A DNA stretch of 64,000 nucleotides from the human T2T-CHM13v2.0 reference genome, Homo sapiens. Positions 5,586-13,844 of this stretch are shown here, in pieces. Every line of letters starts with the position of its first letter. Positions within the stretch are counted from its first letter, which is position 1. Made by a program: the position numbers and the translations under genes. The DNA lies in NCBI RefSeq assembly GCF_009914755.1, contig NC_060934.1. The stretch is one strand, 5' to 3'. The notes beneath the pieces were generated by a model. That model was given only the letters and a program-made list of their open reading frames with translations, had not been told where the DNA came from and made no database searches.

Positions 5586-6027
5586 TATTTTTAATTTTTA
5601 AATTTTTTTAGAGATGGAATCTCGCTCTGTTGCCCACGCTGGAGTACAGTGGCACAATCATAGCTCACTGTAGCCTCAGACTCCTGGGCTCAAGTGATCC
5701 TCCCACATTAGTCCCTCGAGTAGCTAGGATCACAGACGCAGACCACCACACCTGGTTAATTTTGTATTTTTTGTAGGGATGGTGTTTCACCATGTTGCCC
5801 AGGCTGGTCTCGAACTCTTGGACTCAGGCAAACCTTCTGCCTTAGCCTCTTGAGTAGGTAGGACTACAGGTGCACACCACTATGCCTTATTAATTTTTTT
5901 TTCATTTTTGTATAGGCAGGATCTGGCTGTGTTGCCCAAGGTGGTCTCAAAATCCTAGCCTTAAGTAATCCACCAGCCTCAGCCTTCTCAATACCTGGGA
6001 CTGCAGGCATGCACCACTCTACCTGGT
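5586..6027 (-). mobile_element. Old AluJ-type element with an extra left-type monomer (three arms)
   Basis: right arm followed by two left-arm-like units separated by T-rich linkers. Confidence 0.75.
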
Positions 6028-6258
6028 TTGATTTTTTTTCTTAGTGGGCAGTGAGGGATGTTGAAGGCTTTGCACAAGGGAGTGGCATATTTAGAGTCAC
6101 GCACCAGGAAAATGAGCGTGCAGGGCGAGGGCTGACATTGAAGGTGACCCTGGAAGTTGGGGCCCTGCTGGACATGGGTCAGGCTGTGGCGTCCAGCTGT
6201 GTGAGATGGAAAACCATTCTGTTGTCATGACTCCAACGTGTCTTTACTTCTCTTATAG

Positions 6259-6302
6259 GAAAATAGTGGCCGAGTATGAGAAGACCATCGCTCAGATGAT
6301 AG
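6259..6302 (+). CDS. TACC2: TACC2 coding exon (KIVAEYEKTIAQMI), 44 nt, phase 2-1
   Basis: ttatag|G acceptor, ATAG|gtaggt donor; peptide visible in ORF 6206..6400. Confidence 0.97.
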
Positions 6303-7088
6303 GTAGGTGTCCTGACCTGCGGGGGCTCAGGCCGGCCCCGATGTTTCTGAACTATGAGGAGGCCTTGGAAGATAGGAGGCTCAGAGTGGGTTTCTGGTAG
6401 AGCGTGAAGCCTTTCAGGGAAGGACCAGAGCATTCCAGAAAATATGGCTTTGCCCCAGGACAGAGTCTGGGGCTTCTTGGTAACACCCCCCTGAACTGTG
6501 CCATAGCATTATTCACACCCATGGAAAGCCATGGCAGTCACCTGCCAGCCACCATCTGACTCAGCCAAGGACTCTCTACTTTGTGGGGAAAGAGATTCCT
6601 TTTGGGTGGGATATTTGGGGGATTTTTTCTTTTCGCTTGTGGGAGATAATAGGAATCAAATCCCTAGACCCTAACTTAGTTTAGACTCAAATGACACCTC
6701 AGCCTTTCCACAAGGACCCAGGGACAAGGACAGTGGACCACGGCGTGATTGTCCGCCTCCTTCCTCCCGTGACCATGGCAGGCCCTGTTCACTGACCCCA
6801 GCACTGTTTCTCACTGAGATTGGACGCTGCCTCGGAATCCTTCTTAACACGGCGTCCCTGGCAGCCAGTACTGAGAAATTTGCTTTGGCTCACAATAAAA
6901 GAAGGCCTCAAGTTATAAGCTACACATCCCTGGGCCTTTTTTTCTTTTCTTTTCTTTTTTTTTAAATAATGAGAAAAGATCTTGCAGAAGTTCTAAGCCC
7001 AAGTTTTTATGCTAATGGTCACTATTCAGAAATCATATTATAACTGGGTCTGTGGGATTTTTTTAAAATTAATTAATTATTTGCTTAG

Positions 7089-7566
<478 letters not shown>

Positions 7567-9365
7567 TAAGGATATATGGAGTAAAAACTCCAGGTCACTG
7601 CAGACCACGCTTTATGTGTCCAAGTTTGACACTGTGCTGGCACCTGGTCCCCACCCCCAAGCATATGGATGTATGAGTCACATCACACCTCTAGCTTGTC
7701 CCAAGGTAAATATAATAGTAGCCTCAGGAATAGTGAAGAGGCCAACAATTGAGTGCTTTCCATTCAAAGGAGCTTCAATTTTGATTTATTGTAACAAAGT
7801 TCATTTCACCCAGAAAAGAAGCCCTTTCATGTTTAGCCTCATGGTGCATGCTTCCTATCAAAGTGAAACTTCTTTATTAAATTGGTATAAGAATTTATGA
7901 ACACATATGGATAAGATAAAAAAAAAAACTCTTGGAGTTGAAAATGCTGGCAAAAATGGTCAGGCTAAGGGATTGATGTCTTCCTTATGTGGTGTTTGGC
8001 AAGTAGAACACAACTTTTTGGCCTCCTGGAGTCTTGGGATTTGAGAACATCACTCAGGCCCTCCATAGTTCATCTGGAAACATCCTGCTCCATCTCAGAG
8101 CCATACACTTTCATTTTTGCCCTTGGTGATGACATTTTGGTAAATGTTGAAATGCGGGGGAAAGGGTGTGAGCTTTTGCTCCTGAGAGAAAGCTACCCAA
8201 GCCATCTTTTATTGCTCAGCTGGCGAAGTTGATATAAACAGACATTCCCTCTTGAAAATTAAAAGTGGAGAATTTCTCTAGTTGGCATAAATGTCCTGTC
8301 CTTGTCATGACAGAAAGATTACTCCCACGGTTTCCTCAAAGAATATCTGCAGGTGACAGCAGTGAGGACCTTTTCAATCCTAGGCAGTGTGAGTTCCCTC
8401 CAAGCCCTGGAGAGAATGCCACCTGCCTTCCTCTCATCCTGGTGCCAGGGGTTAGGGCCACACATCACCCCCCATCCCCACCCCTGCTCCCTGATGTGTT
8501 TGGCCTGAGGGGCCCTCTCTTCAAGAGCTGTACACACAATCCCTTAGAACATTTTCCTGTCCTTGGGGTACTCTCTGGGTGGCCCCTGAGACTCCTCCAG
8601 TGTCCCTGGCTGGGAGCAGCACTGCCACACAGAGGGGCATCTCACTGTGTGTCCGTTCCCCGATCCCCATCCTCATTCACCCATTGACCGTCCTCTGTCA
8701 TTCCAAGGCTTTTTTCATCAGGTGACAGGCCTGTGGTTGTCATTCCTTCAGCCACTGTTGCAGGTCATTGACTAAGGTCACCGTAGATTTCAAGGTCCTT
8801 GTGTCCTTGTGGAAGACAGCAGGGGGCTGAGGCATGGCTGGGACTCACTGTGGCTCTTGGCAGGACGTGCCTTCTTTCTGGCACGGTTCAGGTCAGGGTC
8901 TCTCCATGCTTGGTAACATGCCCAGGAGGCCCACCTGGGTTCCATGCTTTTCTTTCCATTTTCACTCACGTAACCAGCATCCCTTGTGAAAGAGGAAACT
9001 CAGGCCCAGAGAGATTGGCAGTTCAGGACCACCGTGACTGTAGTCGTATTTTGAAGTCAAACCAGCTCCAGCCCACATGTCTAGCTCTTCCTGGCTCTGC
9101 TCCATTCAGCTTTCACAGATGCTCCACACCAGTGTGACATCAGTCCTGCCGTTGTTATTCATTTGCATCAAATGTTACTGGAGAGATATGTTTTGTTAAG
9201 CTCACATAGTGACTATTTAGAATTCAGAAGAGAGAGAGACTTCTGTGCTTTCTGCATTCCAGGTTGTTGCAATTGATTTTTTTCTGCTTTTCTAACAACT
9301 GCCCTGATTATCTGTTTTGCTTCCATTTTCTGTTGCTTCTTGCCCTTTGCTTGCAAAACAAACAG

Positions 9366-9374
9366 GCAAGCCTG
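9366..9374 (+). CDS. TACC2: Putative 9-nt alternative TACC2 microexon GCAAGCCTG (inserts G-K-P), phase 1-1
   Basis: aaacag|GCAAGCCTG|gtaagt; no AG from 9263 to 9363; ctaac branch-like motif ~9292; many TGC motifs; length and phase match the host intron. Confidence 0.8.
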
Positions 9375-10238
9375 GTAAGTAAACGCTTTTCCCCCTAATT
9401 TGACACCTGCCCATTGCAACCCTTTGTTTGTTTGTTTTTCTATTTTTGTTATTTTTGCTTTGTGTATTGCTGCATTCCCCCCACATGATTTCATGATGTT
9501 TTGCCTGAAAAAGCCAGAAAAGTCTTCAGGAGCATTGTTTTGTTGTTGAGTGTAGGGTGTCTTTCTCCTGATTTGAAGAACCTAACTGCGTTTGTCATGT
9601 ACAAAAGGATTTGTGAAGCATTCTTGCCTCCCCCGTCTCCTGGGAACGGGGTAATTCTATTTTTAAAAAGGGTTAGGTTGAGAGGAAAGGAAACCTGAGG
9701 CAGGTGAAGTCTTGGATCCAGGAAATCAGATGGACTTGGTTTGGTAAACAGCTCCTTTACCAAGTCAGGTGAAACATACACATGGGCTCAGATCAGCCCA
9801 GAATATACACCATACAGCGTGCTGGGAACTAAGAAAGCAGCCAGAATTCCAAGAATAAAAACAAGCATTTGATTATTAGAGACATGTTGAAAGGCCCTTT
9901 CTTTTAGGAGTGTGGGTGTGGCAAGCAGGTTGTTGGCGATTCTATGTTAAAAAGCTCCCTCTTCGCAAGCCACTGTGACACTGTTGCTCTGATTCCAGGG
10001 GTCACAGAGTTTATTATGGACAATGAGGCTCTTAATAATGGGTTACCAATACGGGACTCTTCCTCCTTCTTGGGGGCTTTATATACATTTTCTCATTTAA
10101 TCTCCTGCAAATGCCAGGAGATACAAATACTCTTTCTTCCTATTTTAGACAAGGAGGCTGAGACTCAGAGAGTTTAAAACCCTGCTCAAGGTCACTCGTA
10201 TGGAAAGTGTCAGAGTGAGAGCTCGAACTCAGGCAGTT

Positions 10239-10316
10239 CAGAGGCTCCTAGCCACTGGCCTGGGCAGCTCTGGGCTCCAGAGGCTCCTAGCCACTGGCTT
10301 GGGCAGCTCTGGGCTG
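10239..10316 (+). repeat. 39-bp tandem duplication (2 copies, 2 mismatches)
   Basis: cagaggctcctagccactggc(c/t)tgggcagctctgggct(c/g) x2. Confidence 0.95.
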
Positions 10317-11849
10317 CTGGTGGTGAGCGCTCTAGGAGTCCCACGATCGCAGAGGCAGGTGGGAAGGATATTCGGCATCTTCAGGGCCAGTGGTTCTCCA
10401 AGCAGGGTCCCTGCCCCAGCAGCATCTGCGTCACTGGGGAACTTGTGACCTGTGCACGTTCTCTGCCCCACCCCAGACCTCCTAATCTCACGCCGTGGGG
10501 TGGGGTGTAGCAGCCTGCGTGTGAACAAGCCCTTCAGCTGAATAAATCCACACTCACGTGGGAGAGTTTTTGGAAATGAGGTGCTGGGACCCTAAGAGGT
10601 CAGAACTTTAGAGCAAGCTTATGTCGGGACCGGAGCTGAAACCGAGGAAATGACCCCACCACACCACACGGTAACAGTGTGCCTAGTCCTGGGGTATGGC
10701 AAGGTGCAGATATGTCCGGAACCTAAGGGAAAGAAACTCATACAACAAAATCTCCCTGCTACTAAGGGAGCTGCATCCTCCAAGGTCTGTCATTACATGG
10801 GGCCCGTGTAGAGACGTGGTTATGATCACGGCTTCAGGCTTGGCTTTGGGCTCTGCCATTTTCTCAGTGAACAGTGACTTAGCTTCTCAAACCCTCTGTT
10901 CCGCCTTCTGTAAAATGAGGGTGAGAAAAGCTGCCCGGGTGGTTGTGATGCTCTAAGTTGTTCACTCGTCGCATGGACATGTATCAAGACATCCTGTATG
11001 CCCGGCACTATCCTAGGCCCTGGGGCAGAGCAAGTGGACAAAACAGACTCTGGTGCCTGCCCTCACAGAGCGTGCATTCATCAGGGAGATGAGCCGCTGA
11101 TACACCAGCATAGGCACGCACGCACACACGTGCACACATGTGTGCACACATCTGATACAATGATAAGGGGTGGCTGCTGCTGCAAAGAGGAAAATGAAGG
11201 ACTCTAGAGGAAGAGGAGCCATTTCCAGTACCTCTGGGGAGGTGACATGGGATCAGAGCCCTGAGAGAATGTTGGAGAGCCCTGGAAGCCCTGGGGCGGG
11301 ACCCCCTGGGGCATTGGAGGCCTTCGTGGCTGGAGCAGAGAGGCCTGGGAGGGTAGAGGGCAGAGCATGTGGGCAAGGATTTGGGTGTTATTTCCATTTC
11401 AGAGGGAGGTCACTGCGGGGGAGCTCTGAGCAGGAGTGAGGTGGCCTGGTTTGCACATTAGGAAGCTCAGTCTGGCTGCTGAGTGCTGGCTTAGGGACAG
11501 TCAACACCTAGAGCAATCAGCAGGGTGCCCGCCACATGGAAGGGTCCAGTCAGCGCTGGCTCCCGTTGTTCTGTTATTTCCAGATGTGATCTGTCTATGG
11601 CAGCCAGCCCTCGGAGTCATTCCAGGTGGCAGGCAGCCCCCTCCCCAGTGACGAGGGCCTGGTAGAAAGACAGGTCTGCTGAGCTCCTTCCCCAGGAGCT
11701 CTGAGTGGGCGCTTCTCCCTTCCCCACTCTGCTGTCACCAAGAGAGCAAATGGTTCCTCACCCACCTGGGCCGGGGATGGATCCGCACAGAGGACAGAGG
11801 GGTGTTTTGTGTAGAGTAGTCAGAGAAGGCCTTTCCCATAAGTGTAGAA

Positions 11850-12205
11850 ATGATTTTCTAAGCAGCCATAAAAAAAGAACAAAGTCATGTCCTAGGTACC
11901 AGCATGGATGCAGCTGGAGGCCATTGTCCTCAGGGAATTAATGCAGAAACAGAGCGCCAAACACTGAGCATTCTCATTTATAAGAGGGAGCTACACATTG
12001 GGTACACACGGACACAAAGATGGGAACAGAAGACGCTGGGGAGTTCACAGTGGGGGTAGAAGGGAGACGGGTTGAAAACCTGCCTTTCAGGTACTATGCT
12101 CAGTACCTGGGTGACAGGCTCATTAGAAATCTGTACCCCAGCATTAGTCACACAGTATGGCCATGTAACCAACCTGCACATGTGCCCCAAATCTAAAAAT
12201 ATACA
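11850..12205 (+). mobile_element. L1 3' fragment (L1PB/old L1PA-like)
   Basis: agccataaaaaaagaac...catggatgcagctggaggccatt...aacctgcacatgtgcccc 3'UTR signature. Confidence 0.8.
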
Positions 12206-12943
12206 TTTTCTAGATATTTGGGGCAGATTATTAGCTTGGGATGGCCAAGGGCCGGAGAGGTGGGGCAGAGGACAATGGTTCCTCTCACCAGGATCAGCCA
12301 CTCGGAACTGAGCCAACACTGAATTAATATTGTACATCACTGAGAAGCTAACCTTGACAGAAATAGCTCCGTGTTTCTTGGAGTTACAACACTTGCTGTA
12401 TCGAAGACGCTATCTGTGCCTGCGTGAATGGAATTTCAGAGGAGATGCTTTTTTGGGCTCTGGGTTTCCAGATGTGTTAAGGATCTCCAAAGACCTCCTC
12501 TCTGTCCTGATACATAGGAGGGCCCATCCCTCACAGCCCAGACCTCACACCCTTTAATCGTCCCAACGCAAAATTCACTAGCGATGTCTTCTTTTTTACT
12601 TTACGGATCTGTCTGCTTGCTGTCAACAACCACATAGAATCACCAGGGACACCAATATAGACCTGTGAAGGGGCCGTACTGATCAGGTTAAGGAATAGTA
12701 ATGGCTCATTTCTACCTCACGCGAGGCTGCACAGGCCCGGGTCTGGGAAGCCAGGGCTCTGGTTTTTGTTCTGTTAGAGACAGTCTGGGAGGGCTCTGGG
12801 GCGTGGGTTCGTCCCAAGGAAAAGCTGGGGTTTGAGATGCCCCCACTGGTGAGGCTGAGTTGCATCTGAGGCCTCGGCTGGCCCCAGAGACCCAGTTTGG
12901 ACTTTCTGGGCTCCATCATTTGGCTCCTGGTCTCTCCTGCCAG

Positions 12944-13104
12944 AGGACGAACAGAGAGAGAAGTCAGTCTCCCACCAGACGGTGCAGCAGCTGGTTCTGG
13001 AGAAGGAGCAAGCCCTGGCCGACCTGAACTCCGTGGAGAAGTCTCTGGCCGACCTCTTCAGAAGATATGAGAAGATGAAGGAGGTCCTAGAAGGCTTCCG
13101 CAAG
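12944..13104 (+). CDS. TACC2: TACC2 coding exon (EDEQREK...EGFRK), 161 nt, phase 1-0
   Basis: ctgccag|AG acceptor, AAG|gtaggg donor; TACC motif DLNSVEKSLADLFRRYEK. Confidence 0.97.
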
Positions 13105-13350
13105 GTAGGGCTGAGTTTGGGGGCCACGGAGGAGGAGGATCTGATTGGGAGAGATTGTGGGAGCACTGGGAGGGGGTAGGATTCCAGAAGTTGGTCTTGA
13201 GCCACCTGCGAGGAGGGGGTCCATGCAGGCTGGGGAGGCAGACTTGGCCGCCTGGGGTTACACCTGCATCCGAGAGTTCCTGGGGTTCCCACCAGTGCTG
13301 GGCATTTGTTCTCGTGGGCTTGACGCCTGTCCTCTGCCCTGCTGTGTCAG

Positions 13351-13457
13351 AATGAAGAGGTGTTGAAGAGATGTGCGCAGGAGTACCTGTCCCGGGTGAA
13401 GAAGGAGGAGCAGAGGTACCAGGCCCTGAAGGTGCACGCGGAGGAGAAACTGGACAG
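13351..13457 (+). CDS. TACC2: TACC2 coding exon (NEEVLKRC...EEKLD-R), 107 nt, phase 0-2
   Basis: gtcag|AAT acceptor, AG|gtaaca donor; conserved TACC motif [13 protein letters not shown]. Confidence 0.97.
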
Positions 13458-13844
13458 GTAACATTTAGCCACTGGGGGTGGCTCCCAGGGGCCTCCCAGC
13501 AGCCCTTTTACCCAGGCAGGCTGGGACCTCTGGCAGCGCCTGTGACATTGGCTTGGAAAGGGGGCATCATCCAAGTGTGTGTTTCAATAAGACTCGAGAG
13601 AAGGCACACAGTTAGCATCATTTAATCAGTGGAGGATGCGTGTTGCAATGTCCAGGGTGCCCCGGCACCTTGGTCTCATGGCAATGGAATTGGGTTTGGT
13701 GTTCTCATGGGCTCCTGTGCTCCAGCTCCAGTTGGTGGCAGCTGGGGCCAGACCAGGCCACTCTCCCTGCCTGGACCTGGGAAGCAGGAGGTGTCTCTAG
13801 TGATCCACAAAAGAGTGATAATTCTGAGCTCCCTGTCTCCGCAG

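What the first reader, a model, noticed from the sequence alone, without database searches (positions are those of the whole stretch)
9263..9380. 9-nt TACC2 microexon inserting Gly-Lys-Pro into the putative ch-TOG-binding part of the TACC coiled coil
Seen: aaacag|GCAAGCCTG|gtaagt in the middle of a 6.6-kb intron. The acceptor has a ~100-nt AG-free zone (9263-9363), a ctaac branch-like motif (~9292) and at least five TGC motifs within 50 nt of the AG. The donor is the GTAAGT consensus. The host intron is phase 1 and the exon is 9 nt, so inclusion changes ...EKTIAQMI-EDEQ... to ...EKTIAQMI-GKP-EDEQ.... Established: this layout is typical of SRRM4/SRRM3-regulated neural microexons. The segment EYEKTIAQMIE aligns with TACC3 RFEEVVYQAME, which as I recall (~aa 678-688, verify) is the coiled-coil stutter needed for ch-TOG/CKAP5 binding. 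Inference: a tissue-specific splice switch places two helix breakers and a 3-residue register shift at the microtubule-polymerase docking site, tuning TACC2-chTOG binding in neurons or muscle. The exon is too short for the ORF track to show.
Basis: partly seen in the sequence, partly recalled or inferred. Interest (0 to 1): 0.9.

Follow-up and report, generated by a model that had tools for sequence, protein, structure and literature searches.

The report
Known neural/retinal microexon in TACC2
This is a real, very old 9-base exon of the TACC2 gene, already catalogued as a neuron- and retina-type splice switch, that adds three amino acids right beside the place where TACC proteins hold the microtubule polymerase ch-TOG; what that insertion does has not been tested.

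Summary
It is not chance and not new. TACC2 protein models of many vertebrates carry exactly this insert: GKP in mammals and birds, GMP in ray-finned fishes. A 9-nt TACC2 exon is listed as VastDB HsaEX0063374 among 314 SRRM4 targets in HEK293 cells, PSI 0 to 57. Its mouse counterpart is retina/neural-enriched and its zebrafish counterpart drops in mutant eyes. By gapless alignment the insert falls between the equivalents of TACC3 residues 687 and 688, at the edge of the mapped ch-TOG docking site. My own heptad scoring adds one point: TACC domains have a +4 register shift there, and the three residues cancel it. The effect on ch-TOG binding is untested. No human tissue data were seen, and muscle use is unsupported. 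Verdict: the exon is already known, and the protein-level hypothesis is plausible, apparently unpublished and testable.

The parts
6259..6302 (+). Upstream constitutive TACC2 exon (44 nt). It encodes (R)KIVAEYEKTIAQMI and ends in phase 1.
   Evidence: plus the hub annotation. By the alignment these residues correspond to about TACC3 673-687, the segment modelled as the ch-TOG H5 groove.
9263..9363 (+). AG-free zone of 101 nt. It is pyrimidine-rich in its distal part and A-rich just before the AG. It holds the branch-point-like motifs and the TGC cluster.
9292..9308 (+). Branch-point-like motifs CTAAC (9292-9296) and CTGAT (9304-9308), about 70 and 59 nt upstream of the acceptor.
   Evidence: Use as a branch point is inferred, not shown.
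9318..9354 (+). Cluster of five TGC (UGC) motifs within 50 nt of the acceptor, the likely SRRM3/4-responsive intronic enhancer.
   Evidence: One search gives the motif positions. That such motifs mediate the SRRM4 response is recalled general knowledge and was not tested here.
9364..9365 (+). Acceptor AG.
9366..9374 (+). The 9-nt microexon GCAAGCCTG. With the flanking split codons it inserts Gly-Lys-Pro.
   Evidence: Orthologous GKP/GMP isoforms appear. A 9-nt TACC2 event HsaEX0063374 appears.
9375..9380 (+). Donor GTAAGT, matching the MAG|GTRAGT consensus at 8 of 9 positions.
12944..13104 (+). Downstream constitutive TACC2 exon, beginning (E)DEQREKSVSHQT...
   Evidence: plus the hub annotation.

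Best explanation
The feature is a genuine 9-nt cassette microexon of TACC2, conserved across bony vertebrates.

Splicing (partly shown). The exon is skipped by default. Its acceptor is poor: it has an A-rich stretch before the AG, no branch-like motif closer than about 59-70 nt, and a 101-nt AG-free zone. It is included when SRRM4 or SRRM3 is present, most likely through the UGC cluster just upstream, helped by a near-consensus GTAAGT donor. The SRRM4 response and the retina/neural enrichment come from published tables. The role of the UGC cluster is inferred.

Protein (position shown, effect inferred). Inclusion inserts Gly-Lys-Pro into the TACC_C coiled-coil domain, between the residues equivalent to TACC3 687 and 688. 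This lies directly after the segment that in TACC3 forms the groove for ch-TOG helix H5. It also lies inside the conserved register discontinuity (stutter) of the family. The three residues cancel the +4 heptad shift while placing a proline on a core 'a' position. The most likely consequence is a remodelled or hinged docking site that changes ch-TOG (CKAP5) recruitment by TACC2 in neurons and photoreceptors, probably weakening it. I put about 0.4 on a measurable change in ch-TOG binding and about 0.3 on a decrease.
For: Sequence and frame. Rarity of the architecture.

Conservation. One search tallied all 307 stored TACC2-type proteins for the sequence between ...IAQMI and ED(E/D)Q.
- No insert: 174.
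- GKP: 47. These are rodents, Cebus, Bos, bats, cat, dog, beluga, tenrec, jerboa and three birds.
- GMP: 41. These are ray-finned fishes, including paddlefish and gar.
- GSP: 2. GT: 2. GKF: 1.
- No pattern match: 40, of which 3 read GEF+K/Q.
Names come, and lineages. Gly and Pro are invariant in the 21 aligned inclusion isoforms.

Regulation.
- PMC7935315, supplementary file 7: 'TACC2 HsaEX0063374 chr10:122245065-122245073, 9 nt, PSI GFP 0, PSI SRRM4 57.28'. The list is defined as 314 exons with dPSI >=25 in both replicates of HEK293 cells overexpressing SRRM4.
- PMC9303857, supplementary file 1: mouse Tacc2 MmuEX0046126, 9 nt, retina 77.26, others 1.64, neural 35.3.
- PMC9303857, supplementary file 10: zebrafish TACC2 DreEX0008613, 9 nt, eyes at 5 dpf, mutant 54.74 against wild type 79.98.

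Position.
- The host domain is PF05010, residues 413-616 of P0072.
- The TACC3 orthologue P0442 aligns without gaps...FEEIVYQAM|EEAK against ...YEKTIAQMI|EDEQ. The residue after the junction is the 151st from the C-terminus in 89 of 148 representatives, including P0442. That is residue 688 of an 838-residue TACC3.
- Deletions of 678-681 and 682-688 abolish ch-TOG binding and map to a predicted 3-aa stutter (PMC3734082).
- ch-TOG H5 is modelled in the groove formed by residues 672-687 (PMC11921806).

Register.
- A +4 shift across the junction appears in 110 of 131 insert-free representatives.
- The shift is 0 in 5 of 5 representatives with a 3-residue insert.
- The mouse skip and inclusion isoforms give the same result.

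The TACC domain of Xenopus TACC2 is necessary and sufficient for plus-end tracking (PMC5063610).
Against: - I saw no human tissue PSI. TACC2 is absent from the hg38 retina-microexon sheet of PMC9303857 file 1, where the only 'tacc2' hit is the mouse row. By the hub table, the human RefSeq set shows no extra TACC2 exon in this window. No protein named Homo sapiens appeared.
- 'Tacc2' gave 0 hits in the 7 supplementary files held for the MicroExonator paper.
- The identity of HsaEX0063374 (hg38) with window 9366-9374 (CHM13) rests on indirect evidence, not a liftover. The evidence is the gene name, the 9-nt length, the absence of another AG-N9-GT site within 150 nt, and the fact that this is the only one of 24 such sites in the intron that encodes GKP.
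- Direct TACC2-ch-TOG binding through this site appears in none of the passages I read. The site is mapped in TACC3 only.
- The human TACC3 sequence itself was not in hand. The numbering comes through an orthologue and assumes no indel.
- The heptad scoring is my own crude scale. A proline on an 'a' position would not give a regular coiled coil, so 'cancelling the stutter' is arithmetic, not a demonstrated structure.
- The column meanings of the mouse and zebrafish rows were read from headers of neighbouring sheets. That 'MUT' means the srrm3 mutant is inferred from the paper's title.
Confidence: 0.75

Rival explanations
1. The microexon is real and regulated, but its role has nothing to do with ch-TOG. 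The Gly-x-Pro could act as a hinge that changes the geometry or stability of the TACC2 dimer. It could also make or break a site for another partner, or be nearly neutral.
For: Gly and Pro are invariant while the middle residue varies among K, M and S. That pattern fits a structural hinge better than a specific contact. TACC2-ch-TOG binding at this site appears in none of the passages read. The abstract of one zebrafish study says that removing developmentally regulated microexons has minimal impact on larval brain morphology and function (PMC12626420, search listing only).
Against: The insert abuts, to the residue, the segment mapped as the ch-TOG site in the paralogue. It sits in a register discontinuity conserved in 110 of 131 family representatives. 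The flanking residues are almost invariant across TACC2.
Confidence: 0.35
2. In humans the exon is hardly used in vivo. The splice signals would be kept by descent and would respond to forced SRRM4 expression, but inclusion in human tissues would be low.
For: The only human datum I saw is overexpression in HEK293 cells. The exon is absent from the human retina-microexon sheet and, by the hub table, from human RefSeq models.
Against: The nine bases encode the same GKP as in other mammals and birds. A New World monkey has 11 GKP-bearing models. Mouse retina PSI is 77. The human site keeps every element of the architecture. Absence from a list built with enrichment thresholds is weak evidence.
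Confidence: 0.1
3. The site is a chance splice-like motif in a long intron and not an exon.
For: There are 24 bare AG-N9-GT sites in the host intron.
Against: Only this site encodes GKP. Identical inserts appear in dozens of species. A 9-nt TACC2 event is measured in three species. In shuffles, 0 of 200 reach the observed architecture.
Confidence: 0.01

Closest known systems
VastDB events HsaEX0063374 (human), MmuEX0046126 (mouse) and DreEX0008613 (zebrafish), as listed in the supplements of PMC7935315 and PMC9303857
   Same: They share the gene, the 9-nt length and cassette-exon type, and the SRRM4-induced or retina/neural-enriched behaviour. This is almost certainly the very exon in the window.
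   Different: Identity with the window coordinates is inferred, because the tables use hg38 and the window is CHM13. The tables give only PSI values. No main text found by my searches discusses the exon or its protein context.
SRRM4/SRRM3-dependent neural and retinal microexon programme
   Same: The exon is 3-27 nt long and frame-preserving. It has a UGC-rich region close to a weak acceptor, a long AG-free zone and a strong donor. It is deeply conserved across vertebrates, switches on with SRRM4, and lies in a structured protein-interaction domain of a cytoskeletal regulator.
   Different: Nothing about it is atypical. Its inclusion on SRRM4 overexpression (57%) is lower than for many targets in the same table, which exceed 90%.
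TACC3 coiled-coil stutter, residues 678-688, the ch-TOG docking site (PMC3734082, PMC11921806)
   Same: The position in the TACC_C domain is homologous by gapless alignment, and the same +4 register shift is present in TACC2.
   Different: That site was mapped by engineered deletions in TACC3. Here a natural splice variant of the paralogue TACC2 adds three residues at its C-terminal edge. No binding data exist for TACC2 isoforms in what I read.

Membership tests
SRRM3/4-dependent neural/retinal microexon | Length of 3-27 nt and frame-preserving | tested here: met
   The exon is 9 nt. In the phase-1 intron it gives GKP with no stop.
SRRM3/4-dependent neural/retinal microexon | UGC motifs close upstream of a weak acceptor, a long AG-free zone and a strong donor (the definition is recalled) | tested here: met
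   There are five TGC motifs in 50 nt and a 101-nt AG-free zone. Pyrimidine content in the last 20 nt is 0.55, and the donor matches at 8 of 9 positions.
SRRM3/4-dependent neural/retinal microexon | Inclusion rises with SRRM4 or SRRM3 and falls on their loss | not testable with these tools
   Published tables give human HEK293 PSI 0 to 57.28 with SRRM4 and zebrafish eyes at 5 dpf 79.98 wild type against 54.74 mutant. I read these values and did not re-derive them.
SRRM3/4-dependent neural/retinal microexon | Neural or retinal enrichment of inclusion | tested here: inconclusive
   Mouse values are retina 77.26, neural 35.3 and others 1.64. No human tissue values were seen, and the exon is not in the human retina-microexon sheet.
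SRRM3/4-dependent neural/retinal microexon | Deep conservation across vertebrates | tested here: met
   G-x-P inserts occur at the same junction in mammals, birds and ray-finned fishes. Intronic DNA conservation could not be tested because no vertebrate genomes are held.
TACC_C domain (PF05010) of the host protein | Pfam match above the gathering score that spans the insertion point | tested here: met
   P0072 residues 413-616 score 287 bits against a cut-off of 29.9. The insert is at residues 469-471.
ch-TOG-binding stutter of TACC proteins | Homologous position to TACC3 678-688 | tested here: met
   The alignment with the TACC3 orthologue P0442 is gapless, and both junction residues are 151 from the C-terminus. 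Human TACC3 itself was not aligned.
ch-TOG-binding stutter of TACC proteins | Heptad register discontinuity at the site | tested here: met
   A +4 shift appears in 110 of 131 insert-free representatives and in mouse TACC2. The scoring scale is my own.
ch-TOG-binding stutter of TACC proteins | Binding of ch-TOG helix H5 to this segment in TACC2, and its change on GKP insertion | not testable with these tools

The most novel reading that the evidence does not exclude
The GKP microexon is a register-correcting insert. It erases the conserved TACC stutter that forms the three-helix docking groove for ch-TOG helix H5, much as the engineered 4-residue deletion 678-681 does in TACC3. Neurons and photoreceptors would then make a TACC2 that no longer recruits ch-TOG, or holds it differently. 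SRRM4-responsive, retina-enriched microexons also sit in CKAP5 (24 nt) and CLTC (12 and 3 nt). The switch would therefore be one arm of a coordinated rewiring of the TACC-ch-TOG-clathrin module in post-mitotic neural cells.
Probability: 0.25. Interest if true: 0.7.

Novelty: already known. Interest (0 to 1): 0.4.

Why it matters
The exon itself adds nothing new to catalogues. What could matter is its place in the protein. A splice switch conserved from ray-finned fishes to mammals and birds puts Gly-x-Pro exactly at the end of the segment that in TACC3 docks the microtubule polymerase ch-TOG, and it cancels the family-wide coiled-coil stutter.

TACC proteins and XMAP215/ch-TOG track growing microtubule ends in growth cones. 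The passages I read from PMC5063610 report that Xenopus TACC2 acts differently in growth cones and in mesenchymal cells. An isoform-specific change in ch-TOG docking would give a concrete molecular reason for that difference. It can be tested with two recombinant fragments and one peptide.

Tried and rejected
I dropped it and did not try it by another tool.
- RNA structure gave nothing significant. The stretch 9263-9420 folds no better than shuffles (z = 0.26). A local hairpin at 9339-9379 pairs both splice sites with the UGC-rich arm (-14 kcal/mol, z = -1.67; 12 of 200 shuffles fold as well).
- Rfam gave 0 matches over 6000-13500 on both strands.
- Solved structures cover only the C-terminal end of the TACC3 coiled coil, not the stutter.
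- Full-text literature searches gave no discussion of the exon:
  - 'TACC2'+'microexon': 0 papers.
  - 'TACC2'+'SRRM4': 6 papers, none on the exon by title or abstract.
  - 'HsaEX0063374': 0.
  - 'Tacc2'+'Srrm3': 1 unrelated paper.
  - 'Tacc2'+'nSR100': 0.
  - 'TACC1'+'microexon': 2 papers, neither about a TACC1 microexon by title or abstract.
  These searches do not cover supplements or subscription journals.
- The MicroExonator supplements gave 0 hits for 'Tacc2'.
- A look-up of the founding 2014 microexon paper by a PMC id recalled from memory failed.
- An attempt to anchor hg38 to the window through neighbouring VastDB events found only HsaEX0063378, which lies outside the window.
- The muscle reading is rejected on the mouse table.
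The supplements of PMC12871342, the main text of PMC9303857 and further tables could therefore not be read, and they may hold human PSI values or branch-point data for this exon.
- Whether TACC1 has a paralogous microexon could not be tested. No insert-bearing TACC1- or TACC3-like representative appeared among the 148, but that set holds only one protein per 50% cluster.
Full report
**Observation.**
The sequence is exactly as described. The acceptor ...caaaacaaacag ends at 9365, the exon GCAAGCCTG occupies 9366-9374, and GTAAGT follows at 9375-9380. The last AG upstream ends at 9262, leaving a 101-nt AG-free zone. CTAAC lies at 9292, and only two other yTnAy motifs (9273, 9304) lie in the zone. 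Five TGC start at 9318, 9334, 9341, 9348 and 9352, within 50 nt of the acceptor, and eight lie within 100 nt. The upstream exon ends ...ATG ATA G at 6302 and the downstream exon starts AG GAC GAA at 12944. The upstream exon translates as KIVAEYEKTIAQMI. Inclusion therefore reads G|GC AAG CCT G|AG and turns ...IAQMI-EDEQ... into ...IAQMI-GKP-EDEQ....

**Is it more than chance?**
- There are 49 AG|3-27 nt|GTRAGT candidates on the + strand and 62 on the - strand. Only this one combines an AG-free zone of 60 nt or more with three or more TGC in 50 nt.
- Six of 200 dinucleotide-preserving shuffles produced any such site. None reached >=100 nt with >=5 TGC. The thresholds were chosen after the fact.
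- Against the 15 annotated exons in the window, the site has the longest AG-free zone (101 against at most 73) and the most TGC (5 against at most 2). It has nearly the poorest pyrimidine content in the last 20 nt (0.55), and its donor matches at 8 of 9 positions.
- This is the layout I recall as typical of SRRM4-dependent microexons. That recollection comes from no call.

**Is it a real exon?**
I searched with the downstream exon's translation (120 of 1602 hits listed). Two of the 120 hits, a mouse and a prairie-vole TACC2 model, read IAQMIGKPEDEQ. I then searched with the mouse inclusion isoform's junction region, among proteins of similar length (120 of 460 listed) and among longer proteins (120 of 609 listed). 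One search tallied all 307 proteins then stored:
- No insert: 174.
- GKP: 47.
- GMP: 41.
- GSP: 2.
- GT: 2.
- GKF: 1.
- No pattern match: 40. Three of these read GEF with the next residue changed to K or Q. Most of the rest are short ORFs called on unspliced DNA.

These proportions mean nothing, because the query favoured insert-bearing proteins. What matters is which species carry the insert. GKP occurs in rodents, a New World monkey, cattle, bats, cat, dog, beluga, jerboa, a tenrec and three birds. GMP occurs in teleosts and also in paddlefish and gar (names; lineages). In 21 aligned inclusion isoforms Gly and Pro are invariant and the middle residue varies. The exon therefore predates the split of ray-finned fishes and tetrapods. 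No protein named Homo sapiens was listed, and the hub table shows no extra TACC2 exon in human RefSeq.

**Is it already known?**
Yes.
- Human. Supplementary file 7 of PMC7935315 lists 'TACC2 HsaEX0063374 chr10:122245065-122245073, 9, PSI GFP 0, PSI SRRM4 57.28' (supplement passages, part 1). The methods section, read whole, defines the list as 314 exons whose inclusion rose by at least 25 in both replicates of HEK293 cells overexpressing SRRM4.
- Mouse. Supplementary file 1 of PMC9303857 lists Tacc2 MmuEX0046126, 9 nt, with retina 77.26, other tissues 1.64, maximum of others 35.3 and neural 35.3. I read the column names from the human sheets of the same file and did not see the mouse sheet's own name.
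- Zebrafish. File 10 of the same paper lists TACC2 DreEX0008613, 9 nt, with eyes at 5 dpf 54.74 in mutant against 79.98 in wild type. I read the header from the next sheet. That the mutant is srrm3 is inferred from the paper's title.
- I did not read the main text of PMC9303857.

Equating the hg38 event with window 9366-9374 is an inference and no liftover was possible. The evidence has four parts.
- The gene name and the 9-nt length agree.
- No other AG-N9-GT site lies within 150 nt.
- Of 24 such sites in the intron, only this one encodes GKP.
- From memory only, the hg38 end of TACC2 puts the event within a few bases of the expected place.

No main text found by my searches discusses the exon. 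These searches do not cover supplements or subscription journals.

**Protein context.**
The insert lies in the TACC_C domain, PF05010, at residues 469-471 of a domain match spanning 413-616 of the mouse isoform P0072. A library-wide search returned 150 representatives. I aligned the C-terminal 235 residues of 147 of them plus the query, 148 sequences in all.
- One representative, P0442, is a TACC3 orthologue. It carries the Aurora-A-binding Pfam domain, and its last 80 residues match the solved human TACC3 chain 5lxn.
- P0442 aligns without gaps...FEEIVYQAM|EEAK against TACC2 ...YEKTIAQMI|EDEQ. In 89 of the 148 sequences, including both of these, the residue after the junction is the 151st from the C-terminus.
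- For a TACC3 ending at residue 838, as the constructs imply, that residue is 688.
- In the passages I read, PMC3734082 reports that deletions 678-681 and 682-688 abolish ch-TOG binding while folding normally, and that they map to a predicted 3-aa stutter.
- PMC11921806 models ch-TOG helix H5 in the groove formed by residues 672-687 of the TACC3 dimer.

The microexon inserts between the equivalents of 687 and 688. The 44-nt exon just upstream encodes almost exactly the H5-groove segment. The human TACC3 sequence itself was not in hand, so the numbering assumes no indel relative to the orthologue.

**An added observation.**
I scored heptad registers with a simple hydrophobicity scale.
- The 35 residues before the junction and the 56 residues starting 13 after it are out of phase by +4 in the mouse skip isoform and in phase in the inclusion isoform. 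A sliding window shows the same.
- Across the representatives, 110 of 131 insert-free sequences show the +4 shift, and 5 of 5 with a 3-residue insert show no shift.
- The stutter is therefore a family feature, and the microexon cancels it arithmetically. In the continued register the proline falls on a core 'a' position, so a kink or hinge is more likely than a regular coiled coil.
- The engineered deletion 678-681 in TACC3 also removes four residues and so also cancels a +4 shift. It abolished ch-TOG binding with normal folding, although it removes contact residues as well.

This analogy is my inference.

**Mechanism.**
- Shown: the exon exists. According to the published tables it is induced by SRRM4 in human cells, enriched in mouse retina and neural tissue, and reduced in mutant zebrafish eyes.
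- Inferred: the UGC cluster mediates the SRRM3/4 response. The weak acceptor explains default skipping (PSI 0 in control HEK293).
- Inferred: the insert remodels the ch-TOG docking site of TACC2.

The TACC domain of Xenopus TACC2 is necessary and sufficient for plus-end tracking. In the same passages, TACC2 overexpression speeds microtubule growth in mesenchymal cells but not in growth cones (PMC5063610). An isoform difference could explain this, but nobody has tested it in what I read.

**What counts against this reading.**
- I saw no human tissue data. The exon is absent from the human retina-microexon sheet and from human RefSeq by the hub table.
- 'Tacc2' gave no hit in the MicroExonator supplements.
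- There is no evidence of muscle use.
- There are no binding data for TACC2 isoforms.

**What could not be done.**
- RNA folding and Rfam added nothing.

**Verdict.**
The exon is already catalogued. The protein-level hypothesis, sharpened by the register-cancelling arithmetic, appears unpublished within the reach of my searches and is cheap to test.

Noticed in passing
outside the window (CKAP5 on chr11 and CLTC on chr17, as listed in the tables): The other two members of the TACC3-ch-TOG-clathrin complex carry microexons in the same tables. CKAP5 HsaEX0015457 (24 nt) goes from 0 to 90.8 in HEK293 with SRRM4, and reads retina 67.7 and neural 13.5. CLTC HsaEX0015815 (12 nt) goes from 0 to 47.8 and reads retina 20.7. 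CLTC HsaEX0015816 (3 nt) reads retina 57.8. Their positions in the proteins were not determined.
   Followed up: no
window 6259-6302: The 44-nt exon just upstream of the microexon encodes (R)KIVAEYEKTIAQMI. By my alignment this equals about TACC3 673-687, almost exactly the segment modelled as the ch-TOG H5 groove. The binding segment and the microexon are therefore adjacent exons.
   Followed up: partly
window 9339-9379: A local hairpin pairs the 3' splice site and the exon with the upstream UUUGCUUG, and pairs the 5' splice site with CUUGCC. Both splice sites and two UGC motifs sit in stems. The energy is -14 kcal/mol with z = -1.67, and 12 of 200 shuffles fold as well, so it is not significant. 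Conservation could not be checked.
   Followed up: partly
window 9423-9459: A T-rich stretch about 50 nt downstream of the donor has short tandem units, (TTTG)x3.8 and (TTTTGCTAT)x2.8, and further TGC motifs. It may be a downstream intronic element or may be nothing.
   Followed up: no
proteins P0141/P0143, P0247, P0142/P0257/P0258, P0334, P0363, P0323, P0357, P0358: Some gene models show variant inserts at the same junction. These are GT (a frog, 2 residues), GKF, GEF with the next residue K or Q, VVP, AGLP, and longer inserts of 11 or 27 residues in some fish models. I did not sort out whether these are lineage changes, alternative splice sites or model errors.
   Followed up: no
proteins P0001-P0020 and similar: Many short unnamed database proteins begin with residues read through the intron end just before exon 12944 (for example ...SLLPE followed by DEQREK). 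They are ORFs called on unspliced genomic contigs, not real N-termini.
   Followed up: no
window 9369-9370: An internal AG inside the microexon would give a 4-nt, frame-shifting exon (CCTG) with the same donor. The upstream AG is the first one after the long AG-free zone and is the one that matches the orthologous proteins.
   Followed up: partly
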